Of a stretch of DNA of 2,627 bases, positions 2-2,627 are shown one piece after another. Every line of letters starts with the position of its first letter. Position 1 is the stretch's first letter. Origin of the DNA: Naegleria gruberi (lineage: Eukaryota); the NCBI GenBank assembly GCA_000004985.1, contig GG739255.1; one strand, given 5' to 3'. The notes beneath the pieces are model-generated. The model worked only from the letters and a program-made list of their open reading frames with translations, made no database searches and was not told the origin of the DNA. Both the position numbers and the translations under genes were made by a program.

Positions 2-670
2 TATGAAGCATCCAATGACGACGATCACGCAATGGAAATTATGATTAAGGACTCATTCTCAGTTTCTAGAACTACCAATCAAGTACGTGAATCTGATGAT
101 TTGGACGATTTGGATGATTTAATTAATCGTACTGAAAATATCAAACTAAACTATGAAACTGAATCAGGTACAGACGATGAAACTGATTCATCTTCTGATG
201 GAAAGGGAGAATTTACTTCAGTTTCACTCAATACACCTTCAGATAATAGAAAATCCAACAGTTCCAGAAGAATAATCGAATCAGATTCCGATAATTCTGA
301 CGAGGAAATTTCACTCAACACCACAACAGTGAAACCAAATTCTTCCAACAACTCAACGGTCAACTCTGGAAAGATTATCCTCAAAGATCACCACTCTGAT
401 TCAGATTCAGATTCTGAACAAGATGATGAGGAAGAACTTGTTGGAGCAACCTTCTCAGTCAAACCAACAATTTCACTCCAGCAGTCAACCAACTCTGTTT
501 CACTCAATTCACCAGGATCTAATTTATCAACACCATCCACCAAAATCAAAACAAGAATAAGCAAAACATCAGACAAGACCAAACGTGTTAAGAAGAATCA
601 ATCTACATTCAGAAGAATGCATCGACTTGTTGAAGGTCAATTAGAAACTTTGGGCATTGAAATTGAATAA
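2..670 (+). CDS. 3' (C-terminal) part of an acidic Ser/Asp-rich repetitive protein; 5'-partial. Frame is open from the window edge; first in-frame ATG at 32; stop TAA at 668-670. Possibly a nuclear/nucleolar phosphoprotein-like low-complexity protein; identity not recognised.
   Basis: ORF track lists 32..670 (212 aa). The same frame has no stop back to position 2 (Y-E-A-S-N-D-D-D-H-A-M...), and the upstream residues are acidic like the rest, so the CDS probably starts outside the window. The ATG at 32 has a purine at -3 and G at +4, so it could alternatively be the true start. Composition shows acidic/Ser clusters (DLDDLDDL, ESDSDNSDEE, HSDSDSDSEQDDEEE), Asn/Ser/Thr-rich linkers and a basic tail (KIKTRISKTSDKTKRVKKNQSTFRR). 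The two minus-strand ORFs 151..384 and 388..582 are antisense mirrors of this low-complexity region. Confidence 0.6.
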   Translation, partial: YEASNDDDHAMEIMIKDSFSVSRTTNQVRESDDLDDLDDLINRTENIKLNYETESGTDDETDSSSDGKGEFTSVSLNTPSDNRKSNSSRRIIESDSDNSDEEISLNTTTVKPNSSNNSTVNSGKIILKDHHSDSDSDSEQDDEEELVGATFSVKPTISLQQSTNSVSLNSPGSNLSTPSTKIKTRISKTSDKTKRVKKNQSTFRRMHRLVEGQLETLGIEIE

Positions 671-671
671 A
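666..671 (+). promoter_or_regulatory. AATAAA hexamer overlapping the TAA stop of gene 1; candidate poly(A) signal, implying a very short 3' UTR
   Basis: The sequence ...attgAATAAAgaatt has the canonical hexamer at 666-671 and the stop at 668-670. There is no second canonical AATAAA in the following ~480 nt; the next is at 1159-1164. Confidence 0.3.
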
Positions 672-874
672 GAATTAAACTTTGTACTATTACCATTAGA
701 TTGTATTTATATTTAGTGCATCATGACTAACCTCTTCCCCTTCATCTTAGCTTTGTTGTGGTGCAGCATTTCGGAAGAAGATAACTAATTGATTCTCTTT
801 AATACCAAACACAATTGCTATATTATTAATACACAACTTTAAGTCTTCTTAACGTTTTGGTTGTTGTGATTAGG

Positions 875-943
875 TGTTGTTGTTTGAGTATTCACAGGTG
901 AATCTTCATCTTTGAAATAATGTTCAAGTGCCAAACAACAACA
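875..943. repeat. Perfect 12-bp inverted repeat tgttgttgtttg (875-886) / caaacaacaaca (932-943) built from TTG/CAA trinucleotide repeats, with a 45-nt spacer; potential hairpin
   Basis: Direct reading shows the reverse complement of 932-943 equals 875-886. The flanking bases do not extend the stem. The left arm sits in a longer (GTTGTTGT)x2 tract at 861-886. Confidence 0.4.
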
Positions 944-1156
944 AGTTGGTGATATTATTTCGCATTAGTATTTCTATTACTACTTACAGTTTAATAGAAT
1001 ATATTCTTTCATCAAAACCATTACAGTTTGTCTAATCTGTCTGCAGGTAGGAAAAACAACAAATAGAGGGAATTCTATAAGAGAGGAAAGACAAGTCATG
1101 TAACTGTGTAATATAATAGCAATTAATACGTATATTATTTATTGATTTAAGGATCT

Positions 1157-1235
1157 CAATAAATATTTCAAATTATTTCAAAATTGTAAAATTTAAATAT
1201 TTTTTTACAAAATACTGCCAGAGTTAAATATTTCC
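1157..1235. repeat. Three copies of the palindromic motif (T)AAATATTT(C/T) at about 1161, 1195 and 1226, spaced ~31-34 bp apart in an AT-rich tract. Also tatttcaaa is duplicated at 1163-1171 and 1174-1182.
   Basis: Direct reading shows caaTAAATATTTCaaa, attTAAATATTTTttt and gttAAATATTTCcttt. The AAATATTT 8-mer is its own reverse complement. Confidence 0.3.
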
Positions 1236-1682
1236 TTTTTTGAACTAGAAACCAAACACAATATGAAATTCATCATGATTAGACATCACACCGTACGTAT
1301 TTATTGGCTTTATTTCAGCTTTAATCAAATGATCATGAAAATATTAATACCTAAGTCAAAAGCAATTTTTTTGAAAGCAATACGATTTCGAATTAGAAAT
1401 TTTGAACATTTCCTTTTTGGGATTCACTTAAGAAAACATGAATTAAAAACAATCAAATCATCCCTCCAGAGGTATTAAACACTTTTAATATATAACATAT
1501 GGCGAATTGTAATCAGTCTCAATAGATAAATATGTACATCTTCATCCAACCCAAATCCTTAATTTTCAAGTTGGAAGGAATTATTAATATCAAAAGCACT
1601 TATTTGAATTTCAATGGTGGTGTGCATAATCATTGATATTATGTAAACATTGTAGTTTAGATAACATTCTCAAACTCTAATG

Positions 1683-2116
1683 AGTTGGAAAGAAGTTGTG
1701 GCCAAAAATTCGAAACAGGTTTATTTTTTTTACAGTGGCGGAGCGGATATCATATCACATAATCTTTCTATTTAGTTAACTTGCATACTTGAGAGATTCA
1801 TACAAGATATTGTACTACTTTTTGTTGCCGAGAAAAGGTTTACCCGAGCTAAAGTCTTACGCACCAGGTTTTACAGTACTCTGCCTTCAACTCATCTCCT
1901 TTAAAGTGGGTAATAACCTTATTAATAATTCCACAGTAAACCATCTGGAAATTGTCCTTTGAATTTCCAAACCGTAACACGCTCTGCTGTTCACGCCACG
2001 CACCTTCACGCTATCCTTAGTAAAATCAATCTATACAGCCTTAATCAAAAAAGTGTTTGCTGGCAATTTTTCGTAAATATTGAGTGGCGCTCAAATCCGT
2101 TTTTTGATTAAAAAAA
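1683..2116 (+). other. ATG-free leader: no ATG on the + strand between the ATG at 1680-1682 and the gene-2 start codon at 2117-2119. Candidate long 5' UTR / transcribed leader of gene 2.
   Basis: Manual scan of every 'at' dinucleotide across 1683-2116 found no following g. The 70 nt immediately upstream contain three ATGs (1613, ~1648, 1680). For an AT-rich background, several ATGs would be expected by chance in 434 nt. Confidence 0.35.
1978..2011. promoter_or_regulatory. Cluster of four CACGC cores (1978-1982, 1992-1996, 1997-2001, 2007-2011), three of them as TCACGC. On the complementary strand this is GCGTG, the RCGTG core used by bHLH-PAS factors (HIF-type HRE, AHR-type XRE). It lies ~105-140 bp upstream of the gene-2 ATG.
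   Basis: The sequence reads aaCACGCtctgctgtTCACGCCACGCaccttCACGCtatcc. This is four occurrences of a GC-rich 5-mer within 34 bp of an AT-rich locus. A TATA-like taaatat lies at ~2075-2081. Confidence 0.35.
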
Positions 2117-2243
2117 ATGCAAGGAAGAACGCTACTGCTTTTCTCGCTCATTCTTTTATGTGTGCTAGCTTGTTGTTGTGTAGAGAATGTTACTGCTGAA
2201 TCATGGAGAGGTTTCTTGAGTCAATCTATGCAAGTTACAAATG
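2117..2243 (+). CDS. Exon 1 of gene 2. Start codon in A-rich context (aaaaaaaATGc). It encodes the signal peptide and start of the mature region: MQGRTLLLFSLILLCVLACCCVENVTAESWRGFLSQSMQVTN + first base of a Gly codon.
   Basis: The ATG at 2117 follows the 434-nt ATG-free stretch. The N-terminus has the n-region (R4) / hydrophobic core (LLLFSLILLCVLA) / polar c-region layout of a secretory signal peptide. The exon ends at a consensus donor aatg|GTAAGTg at 2244. The frame is closed by a TGA at 2261-2263 inside the intron. Confidence 0.6.
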
Positions 2244-2306
2244 GTAAGTGGAGTGTAATTTGACATTTTGGAAGAATTAAGCATTATGATCATTATTCAT
2301 ATTTAG
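2244..2306 (+). other. Intron 1 of gene 2, 63 nt, phase 1, GTAAGTG...ATTTAG
   Basis: The 5' GTAAGT is at 2244-2249. The 3' end has a T-rich tract plus AG at 2305-2306 (tcatatttag|ga). There is an in-frame TGA at 2261-2263. Splicing 2243|2307 joins g+ga = Gly and restores an open frame. The size is typical of short nematode introns. Confidence 0.55.
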
Positions 2307-2627
2307 GAAAATTATTTTCATCATCAAAAAGATCACAAGTTGTTTGTCCTCCAAATACCTTTGGAAGTAAATGTAATAATAAGGTGAATCTACCAGATAC
2401 ATATCCTCTCAAAAAAGGTCCGTTAATGATTGGCCAGATGGAGATTAATGATGGAAATTCTTATTCATGCGAGTGGACTTTTTTTGTTTTAGAATTTAAT
2501 CAAAGTTTTAGTTATCCCTGTTTTTTTGTCGTAGCCGATACAACTGTTCCACCAATCAATTACACTCTAACCTATTCAGTGTGGTCTGCAGGTTTCATAA
2601 TTTTTTCAAAGGATGTTGTGTTTATTG
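2307..2627 (+). CDS. Exon 2 of gene 2 (3'-partial; continues past the window end). Phase-1 start; the spliced frame is open with no stop for 107 codons: G KLFSSSKRSQVVCPPNTFGSKCNNKVNLPDTYPLKKGPLMIGQMEINDGNSYSCEWTFFVLEFNQSFSYPCFFVVADTTVPPINYTLTYSVWSAGFIIFSKDVVFI. Secreted/type-I membrane protein of unrecognised family.
   Basis: A codon-by-codon read from 2309 to 2627 found no stop. In AT-rich DNA a stop-free run of this length is unlikely by chance. Internal candidate splice signals (donor aag|gtgaat at 2384; T-run+AG at 2491-2492 and 2533-2534) would both lead to an early stop if used, so read-through is favoured. The exact exon structure is uncertain. Confidence 0.45.

What the first reader, a model, noticed from the sequence alone, without database searches (positions are those of the whole stretch)
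2117..2627. Uncharacterised signal-peptide protein gene with a phase-1 short intron; family not recognisable
Exon 1 encodes a textbook secretory signal peptide (MQGRTLLLFSLILLCVLACCC...) that includes a run of three cysteines. After a 63-nt GTAAGT..TTTAG intron the frame stays open to the window edge. The mature region has a CPPNTFGSKC motif, whose Cys spacing resembles growth-factor-receptor / EGF-like cysteine-rich modules. It is otherwise Cys-poor and Phe/Tyr/Asn-rich (SYSCEWTFFVLEFNQSFSYPCFFVVADTTVPPINYTLTYSVW), with several N-x-S/T sequons (NVT, NQS, NYT). I cannot assign it to any family from memory; it may be a lineage-specific secreted or receptor ectodomain protein.
Basis: partly seen in the sequence, partly recalled or inferred. 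Interest (0 to 1): 0.5.

Follow-up and report, generated by a model that had tools for sequence, protein, structure and literature searches.

The report
Naegleria orphan secreted-protein gene, 5' part
This is the first two-thirds of a gene already listed as a nameless "predicted protein" in the public genome of the amoeba Naegleria gruberi; it probably makes a small secreted protein that has no detectable relatives, which is common in this group of organisms.

Summary
ATG 2117 opens a 42-codon exon with a signal-peptide-like N-terminus. A 63-nt GTAAGT…TTTAG phase-1 intron (2244-2306) has stops in all three frames. After it, one frame stays open to the window edge, giving 149 aa.

The product is 97% identical over its full length to one database protein, Naegleria gruberi NEG-M "predicted protein" NAEGRDRAFT_74496 (XP_002670539.1, 226 aa). 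That gene model uses the same junction.

No other relative was found:
- exhaustive phmmer against 1.84 billion representatives returned only the protein itself;
- two word-indexed searches at E≤10 found nothing more;
- Pfam, PDB sequences, and metagenome and viral DNA scans were all empty.

AlphaFold without an alignment gave no usable model (pLDDT 35-38).

The EGF/growth-factor-receptor resemblance is not supported. The Cys triplet is not conserved (C19Y in NEG-M).

Best reading: a real, species-restricted gene for a small, β-rich, probably N-glycosylated and disulfide-bonded secreted protein. Its function is unknown, and I found no RNA or protein evidence. This is ordinary for Heterolobosea and already annotated, so interest is low.

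The parts
2105..2107 (+). In-frame TGA stop four codons upstream of the start codon. It makes ATG 2117 the first possible start in this frame.
   Evidence: Direct reading of the sequence.
2117..2243 (+). Exon 1: start codon plus 42 codons and one base. Encodes MQGRTLLLFSLILLCVLACCCVENVTAESWRGFLSQSMQVTN and the first base of Gly43.
   Evidence: The same N-terminus occurs in NEG-M protein P0001.
2117..2197 (+). Predicted signal peptide, residues 1-27. The n-region is MQGR, the uncharged hydrophobic core is T5-V22, and the c-region is ENVTA. The most likely cleavage is VTA|ES, with V at -3 and A at -1.
   Evidence: Kyte-Doolittle 19-residue mean up to 2.44. AlphaFold models a helix at residues 2-28 with 10-residue block pLDDT of 78, 84 and 48; it is the only confident part of the model. 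The cleavage site is inferred from the -3/-1 rule and was not run through SignalP.
2244..2306 (+). 63-nt GT-AG intron, phase 1: GTAAGT donor, ATATTTAG acceptor, stops in all three frames.
   Evidence: The NEG-M gene model joins the same residues. No RNA evidence was available.
2307..2627 (+). Exon 2, 5' part, running off the window edge. Encodes residues 43-149 of the mature, β-rich region. The NEG-M allele continues for 77 more codons to a stop.
   Evidence: It is the only open frame of six. It is 97% identical to P0001.
2345..2374 (+). The CPPNTFGSKC motif (residues 56-65). It is a C-x8-C pair and a possible small disulfide loop. It is not an EGF or furin-like module.
   Evidence: Coordinates read. 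No Cys-rich Pfam family matched.

Best explanation
The window's 3' end holds the first 149 codons of a Naegleria gruberi protein-coding gene. It is an allele or strain variant of NAEGRDRAFT_74496 (XP_002670539.1, UniProt D2VZI1).

Proposed mechanism, with shown and inferred steps marked:
1. Transcript structure (shown as sequence features, not as RNA): a very short A-rich leader and one 63-nt GT-AG phase-1 intron, 16 codons after the predicted signal-peptide cleavage site.
2. Targeting (inferred): the N-terminal 27 residues act as a cleavable ER signal peptide, probably cut at VTA|ES. This directs co-translational translocation into the ER.
3. Mature protein (inferred): about 199 aa in the NEG-M model, Ser/Thr/Asn/Phe/Val/Ile-rich and mostly β-strand. 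It has six cysteines (56, 65, 97, 114, 183, 211), enough for three disulfides. It has four N-x-S/T sequons beyond the signal peptide, and no transmembrane or GPI-type hydrophobic tail.
4. Fate (inferred): it is most likely released as a small soluble N-glycoprotein, or stays loosely attached to the cell surface.
5. Function (guess): the protein has no detectable relative in any other organism, so it is a species-restricted 'orphan'. My best guess at its role is extracellular binding, for example to prey, substrate or cyst-wall material. No data here test that.
For: - Identity: one hit, P0001, E 1e-91, 97% identity, 100% query coverage, named 'predicted protein [Naegleria gruberi]'. The window's GC content of 32.5% matches the 33% reported for N. 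gruberi NEG-M (PMC8296547).
- Gene structure: the independently built NEG-M model has the same junction. The donor is GTAAGT, the acceptor is T-rich, and the intron is closed in all three frames.
- Coding signal: one open frame of six, and 82 of 20,000 shuffles with any open frame. In NEG-M the frame extends 77 more codons. G is enriched at codon position 1 (0.23) and GC at position 3 is low, unlike the spurious 93-codon stretch where G at position 1 is 0.10.
- Constraint: four of the five amino-acid differences from NEG-M lie in the first 32 residues, and only one lies in the remaining 117 (Fisher p = 0.0077). There are no frameshifts or stops.
- Signal peptide: hydrophobic core with Kyte-Doolittle mean 2.44, Arg4 ahead of it, and small residues at -3/-1. 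A start like this is expected in only 3.5% of random windows.
- No membrane anchor: the maximum 19-residue hydropathy in the mature part is 1.38.
- Orphan status.
- Precedent: about a third of predicted proteins in the related amoeba Acrasis kona have no BLAST hit, and some of these novel proteins carry signal peptides. That paper shows an intron at a signal-peptide/mature junction (PMC11589745).
Against: - I found no transcript or peptide evidence. The accessions appear in no searchable paper and in none of the stored supplements of four Naegleria papers I checked, three of them omics or comparative-genomics studies. Some of those supplement files were truncated when stored.
- There are no orthologues outside N. 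gruberi and no paralogues, which is also what a spurious gene model would show.
- The uncharged hydrophobic core is about 17-18 residues, at the long end for a cleaved signal peptide.
- Hydrophobic translations are common in AT-rich DNA, and a 93-codon open stretch occurs by chance nearby.
- Without the NEG-M DNA I could not count synonymous differences, so purifying selection is suggested but not demonstrated.
- No fold could be predicted (pLDDT 35-38), so the β-rich description rests on low-confidence models and on sequence pattern.
Confidence: 0.68

Rival explanations
1. Same gene, but the N-terminal hydrophobic segment is an uncleaved signal anchor. The product would then be a type II membrane protein with its β-rich C-terminal part outside the cell or in an organelle lumen.
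For: The uncharged hydrophobic stretch T5-V22 is 18 residues long and preceded by Arg4. That is long for a signal-peptide core and short-to-adequate for a membrane span. AlphaFold models one continuous helix at residues 2-28.
Against: A polar c-region (ENVTA) with V at -3 and A at -1 follows the core directly. That is the classic cleavage context, and it is conserved in the NEG-M allele. The n-region carries a single positive charge.
Confidence: 0.12
2. Same gene, but the 226-aa NEG-M model is cut short at its 3' end. The real protein would continue through a further intron into leucine-rich repeats and perhaps a membrane anchor, making this region the N-terminal part of a larger receptor-like ectodomain.
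For: Residues 191-216 of P0001 (KISSLQELSKLKNLTTFDIPCNSSST) give a weak Pfam LRR_4 match, E 0.058, 14.1 bits. The motif LKNLTTFDIPCN fits LxxLxxLxLxxN, and the model stops only 10 residues after the match.
Against: The score is far below the Pfam cut-off of 27 bits and covers a single repeat. No LRR protein appears as a homologue in any search.
Confidence: 0.1
3. This is not a functional gene. It would be a chance open frame, or a decaying or very young proto-gene, that a gene finder joined into a model because it has a hydrophobic start and a consensus-looking intron.
For: It has no homologue in about 15 billion proteins other than its own allele. I found no expression evidence. No Pfam domain or predictable fold was found. 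AT-rich DNA in this same window gives a 93-codon open stretch by chance. 97% identity between close strains would also be expected for neutral DNA.
Against: Several features coincide: an ATG directly after an in-frame stop, a signal-peptide-like start (3.5% expectation), a GTAAGT…TTTAG intron closed in all frames, and a joined frame of 184 further codons in NEG-M. At a stop frequency of about 7% per codon, I estimate the chance of that open frame at roughly 1e-6 per frame. Substitutions are concentrated in the signal-peptide region (p = 0.0077). There is an even number of cysteines in the mature part. Codon-position composition looks like coding sequence.
Confidence: 0.1

Closest known systems
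Naegleria gruberi NEG-M predicted protein NAEGRDRAFT_74496 (XP_002670539.1 / EFC37795.1 / UniProt D2VZI1), 226 aa
   Same: It is 97% identical over all 149 residues encoded in the window. It has the same start, the same exon junction, and the same Cys positions (56, 65, 97, 114) and sequons. This is the same gene in another strain or haplotype.
   Different: There are five substitutions: S10T, C19Y, R31G, G32S and F101I. The window lacks the last 77 codons. The database entry has no name, no domain and no literature.
Species-restricted ('novel') signal-peptide proteins of heterolobosean amoebae, as catalogued for Acrasis kona (PMC11589745)
   Same: They are short predicted secreted proteins with no BLAST-detectable relatives and short introns. 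That paper shows an intron at a signal-peptide/mature junction, although in a bacterial-derived horizontally transferred gene rather than a novel one.
   Different: There is no sequence relationship, so this is a category and not a family. The A. kona examples have transcriptome support, and this gene has none that I could find.
EGF-like and growth-factor-receptor (furin-like) cysteine-rich modules
   Same: A short C-x8-C stretch rich in Pro, Asn and Gly (CPPNTFGSKC) lies in an extracellular context.
   Different: It has only two cysteines where an EGF module has six, and there is no repeat of the unit. No Pfam Cys-rich model matches at E≤10. It is not a member.
Leucine-rich repeat proteins (Pfam LRR_4, PF12799)
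   Same: One LxxLxxLxLxxN-like motif occurs at residues 201-212 of the NEG-M protein, which lies outside the window.
   Different: The match scores 14.1 bits against a 27-bit cut-off and is a single motif. The part encoded in the window has no LRR pattern.

Membership tests
Allele/orthologue of N. gruberi NAEGRDRAFT_74496 | High full-length identity to XP_002670539.1 with collinear exon structure | tested here: met
   97% identity, 100% query coverage, E 1e-91. The junction residues …VTNGK|LFSSS… are identical.
Proteins with a cleavable Sec-type (ER) signal peptide | Positively charged n-region followed by an uninterrupted hydrophobic h-region | tested here: met
   Arg4, then T5-V22 with no charged residue. 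The 19-residue Kyte-Doolittle mean peaks at 2.44.
Proteins with a cleavable Sec-type (ER) signal peptide | Polar c-region with small uncharged residues at -3 and -1, and cleavage predicted by a trained method or shown experimentally | tested here: inconclusive
   ENVTA|ES has V at -3 and A at -1 by direct reading. SignalP and Phobius were not available. An h-region of about 17-18 residues leaves a signal anchor possible.
U2-type GT-AG spliceosomal intron | GT…AG ends with a consensus donor; removal restores a long open frame, while retention meets a stop | tested here: met
   GTAAGT…TTTAG, 63 nt, with stops in all three frames. The spliced frame is open for 149 codons, while the unspliced ORF ends at 2263.
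U2-type GT-AG spliceosomal intron | Spliced transcripts observed | not testable with these tools
   No RNA-seq or EST data were accessible. The IDs appear in no searchable paper or stored supplement.
EGF-like / furin-like cysteine-rich domains | Six-cysteine module (or repeated CxxC-rich units) recognised by the family profile | tested here: not met
   The motif has two Cys. Pfam gave no family for the window protein at E≤10 and no Cys-rich family for the full protein.
Leucine-rich repeat proteins | Tandem LRR units scoring above the Pfam gathering threshold | tested here: not met
   LRR_4 scored 14.1 bits against a cut-off of 27, E 0.058, with one stretch at residues 191-216 of P0001, outside the window.
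CUB, ML/NPC2-like and ependymin-related secreted β-sandwich families (leads from memory and from PMC6280359) | Match to the family profile or to a solved structure | tested here: not met
   No Pfam hit for any of these and no PDB sequence hit at E≤10. A fold comparison was not possible because the models have pLDDT 35-38.

The most novel reading that the evidence does not exclude
The gene encodes a genuinely new extracellular protein fold that arose within the Naegleria gruberi lineage, either de novo or by divergence beyond recognition. The protein would be a species-specific secreted or surface factor, for example in recognition of prey or mates, or in cyst-wall building. That would make it a tractable example of orphan-gene birth in a deep-branching eukaryote.
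Probability: 0.25. Interest if true: 0.35.

Novelty: already known. Interest (0 to 1): 0.15.

Why it matters
It matters little beyond annotation. The gene model has been public since the 2010 N. gruberi genome as an unnamed predicted protein, and orphan secreted proteins are numerous in heterolobosean amoebae. This check adds four modest points:
- A second allele keeps the frame open and agrees with the predicted intron.
- Its few substitutions cluster in the signal-peptide region.
- The protein has no relative in very large sequence collections.
- The EGF-like idea can be dropped.

If the gene is expressed, it would join the pool of lineage-specific secreted proteins that may shape how Naegleria interacts with its surroundings. 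Nothing singles it out from that pool.

Tried and rejected
- Pfam on the window protein and on the full NEG-M protein gave nothing except a sub-threshold LRR_4 hit.
- PDB sequence search at E≤10 gave nothing.
- Exhaustive phmmer against 1.84 billion representatives returned only the protein itself.
- Two word-indexed searches at E≤10, one with the signal peptide removed, also returned only the protein itself.
- Degenerate-pattern plus tblastn scans of JGI metagenome contigs and IMG/VR viral contigs were run to look for relatives or a giant-virus origin. Both found nothing.
- Exact look-up of the NEG-M protein, to fetch downstream DNA, found it not on record. The stop codon, the 3' end and dN/dS therefore could not be examined.
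- Searching with the upstream ORF to reach the locus through the neighbouring gene found no homologue.
- AlphaFold on the full protein and on the mature part, without an alignment, gave pLDDT 37.5 and 34.8. I ran no fold search because the matches would be meaningless.
- Rfam and tRNA scans of the window gave nothing credible. The repeat scan showed only short chance pairs.
- A literature search for the four accessions gave 0 papers. Supplements of four Naegleria papers held only numeric coincidences or nothing. The primary genome and microarray papers are not in the library.
- CUB, ML and ependymin resemblances were considered from the C-x-W…C pattern and from PMC6280359. I rejected them for lack of any profile match.
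- Codon-usage log-likelihood trained on the upstream ORF was uninformative, because that ORF is low-complexity.

Full report
**1. What is in the sequence**

The window is AT-rich DNA (32.5% G+C). At 2117 an ATG sits in an A-rich context (AAAAAAAATG), four codons after an in-frame TGA.

- The frame runs 42 codons and one base to a GTAAGT at 2244.
- Read unspliced, it stops at 2261-2263, giving a 48-aa ORF.
- Removing 2244-2306 joins it to a frame that stays open to the last base of the window. This intron is 63 nt, GTAAGT…ATATTTAG, with stops in all three frames.
- The product is 149 aa, and exon 1 is 127 nt, so the intron is phase 1.

**2. Is it more than chance?**

- Over 2307-2627 only this one of six frames lacks stops. 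Only 82 of 20,000 dinucleotide-preserving shuffles left any frame open over the 321 nt.
- I defined a crude signal-peptide-like start as K/R in the first 8 residues followed by a 12-residue uncharged window with mean hydropathy of at least 2.3. By that test the 2117 ORF is the only one of seven ATG ORFs of at least 40 aa in the window that qualifies. Such an ORF turns up in 3.5% of random Markov sequences of this size.
- 104 GT..AG pairs could join the two frames. Only 2244/2306 pairs a GTAAGT donor with a T-rich TTTAG acceptor.
- A caution: the spacer upstream contains a 93-codon stop-free stretch at 1197-1475. Its translation and codon-position composition look non-coding (G at position 1 is 0.10, against 0.23 in the candidate gene). 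Frame length within the window is therefore not strong evidence on its own.

**3. Identity**

A search of 5.8 billion proteins gave a single hit, P0001. It has E 1e-91, 97% identity and 100% coverage of the query, and is 226 aa long. It is the 'predicted protein [Naegleria gruberi]', accessions EFC37795.1 / XP_002670539.1 / D2VZI1 / NAEGRDRAFT_74496, and is the only member of its 90% cluster.

- Its sequence carries the same …VTNGK|LFSSS… join, so the public gene model uses the same intron.
- It continues 77 residues past the window edge to a stop.
- The window's G+C content agrees with the 33% reported for N. gruberi NEG-M. That genome averages 1.7 exons per gene (PMC8296547).
- The window is therefore N. 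gruberi DNA, or DNA of a very close relative, carrying another allele of this gene.

**4. Differences between the two alleles**

There are five substitutions: S10T, C19Y, R31G, G32S and F101I. Each is reachable by a single base change.

- Four fall in the first 32 residues and one in the remaining 117 (Fisher p = 0.0077). This is the pattern expected if the mature part is under more constraint than the signal-peptide region.
- Without the NEG-M DNA I could not count synonymous changes, so this is suggestive only.
- The 'run of three cysteines' is not conserved (C19Y) and lies inside the hydrophobic core, so I give it no significance.

**5. No relatives**

- Exhaustive phmmer of the 226-aa protein against 1.84 billion 50%-identity representatives found only the protein itself.
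- A second word-indexed search with the signal peptide removed, at E≤10, also found only itself.
- Pfam gave nothing for the window protein.
- For the full protein Pfam gave only a sub-threshold LRR_4 hit at residues 191-216 (E 0.058, 14.1 bits against a cut-off of 27).
- PDB sequences gave nothing at E≤10.
- tblastn-confirmed scans of metagenome and viral contigs gave nothing.

By these measures the protein is a species-restricted orphan with no paralogues.

**6. Protein features**

- Residues 1-27 have the classic three-part layout of a signal peptide: MQGR, an uncharged core T5-V22 (Kyte-Doolittle up to 2.44), and ENVTA with V at -3 and A at -1.
- AlphaFold models only this segment with confidence, as a helix at residues 2-28 with block pLDDT of 78, 84 and 48.
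- The core is long at about 17-18 residues, so an uncleaved signal anchor cannot be excluded without SignalP or Phobius.
- The rest of the NEG-M protein has six cysteines (56, 65, 97, 114, 183, 211) and four sequons (107, 127, 203, 212).
- It has no segment hydrophobic enough for a membrane span (maximum 1.38) and no hydrophobic C-terminal tail.
- Its composition is rich in Ser, Thr, Asn, Phe, Val and Ile.
- Both AlphaFold runs, made without an alignment because no homologues exist, gave pLDDT 35-38 with mostly short strands. The fold is unknown, and I ran no fold search.

**7. Mechanism**

Most likely (about 0.68) this is a real gene. Its product would enter the ER through a cleavable signal peptide, be disulfide-bonded and N-glycosylated, and be secreted or displayed as a small β-rich protein. 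The splice signals, the signal-peptide layout and the open frame are shown as sequence features. Cleavage, glycosylation, secretion and any binding role are inferred.

Rivals:
- A type II membrane protein with an uncleaved signal anchor (0.12).
- A longer LRR-containing, receptor-like protein whose public model is cut short at the 3' end (0.10). This rests only on the weak LRR_4 hint.
- A spurious or non-functional open frame (0.10). This fits the lack of homologues and of any expression evidence that I could find.

**8. Comparison with what is known**

- The EGF/growth-factor-receptor resemblance fails. The motif has two cysteines and no profile matches.
- CUB, ML and ependymin-type secreted β-sandwich families were considered. 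N. gruberi does have an ependymin-related protein, EFC42264, but that is a different gene (PMC6280359). None matches by profile.
- The closest category is the large set of 'novel' proteins of heterolobosean amoebae. Nearly a third of Acrasis kona proteins have no BLAST hit and some of these carry signal peptides. The same paper shows an intron at a signal-peptide/mature junction in a horizontally acquired gene (PMC11589745).
- In N. fowleri, 458 orthogroups lack any N. gruberi homologue, and 404 of the 458 have transcript support (PMC8296547).

An orphan secreted-protein gene is therefore ordinary here.

**9. Verdict**

The feature is an already annotated but uncharacterised N. gruberi gene. 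Interest is low (0.15).

The most novel reading not excluded is a lineage-born new extracellular fold (probability about 0.25, interest 0.35 if true).

Noticed in passing
window 2-670 (+): A 222-codon open frame runs off the 5' edge and ends at TAA 668-670. It is rich in Ser, Asp, Glu and Asn, with a basic tail (…KTKRVKKNQSTFRRMHRLVEGQLETLGIEIE). It has no credible Pfam family (only Utp14 at E = 1, 8.3 bits) and no homologue at E≤0.001 in the 5.8-billion-protein database, although the neighbouring gene's NEG-M allele is there. It may be unannotated or modelled differently in NEG-M.
   Followed up: partly
window 671-2116: A 1.45-kb AT-rich spacer separates the two same-strand genes, which is long for a genome that is about 58% coding. 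G+C falls to 19% at 1126-1275 and rises to about 41% at 1876-2100, just upstream of the ATG. I found no tRNA, no credible Rfam match and no significant repeats.
   Followed up: partly
window 1197-1475 (+): A 93-codon stop-free stretch (an ATG ORF at 1263-1478, 71 aa) gives a Lys/Ile/Phe-rich translation, with G at codon position 1 of only 0.10. It is probably a chance open frame. It serves as a local yardstick for how long such frames get in this DNA.
   Followed up: partly
P0001 residues 191-216 (beyond the window's 3' edge): There is a weak leucine-rich-repeat-like motif, KISSLQELSKLKNLTTFDIPCNSSST (Pfam LRR_4, E 0.058, 14.1 bits against a cut-off of 27). The public model stops 10 residues after the match, so its 3' end may be truncated.
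   Followed up: no
window 388-582 (-): The antisense strand of the acidic upstream ORF gives a 64-aa ORF that starts MVLSDVLLILVLILV… It shows that hydrophobic, leader-like translations arise as by-products in this sequence. It is almost certainly not a gene.
   Followed up: no
The NEG-M protein reads straight through it (…CNNKVNLPDTY…), so the public model does not use it.
   Followed up: partly
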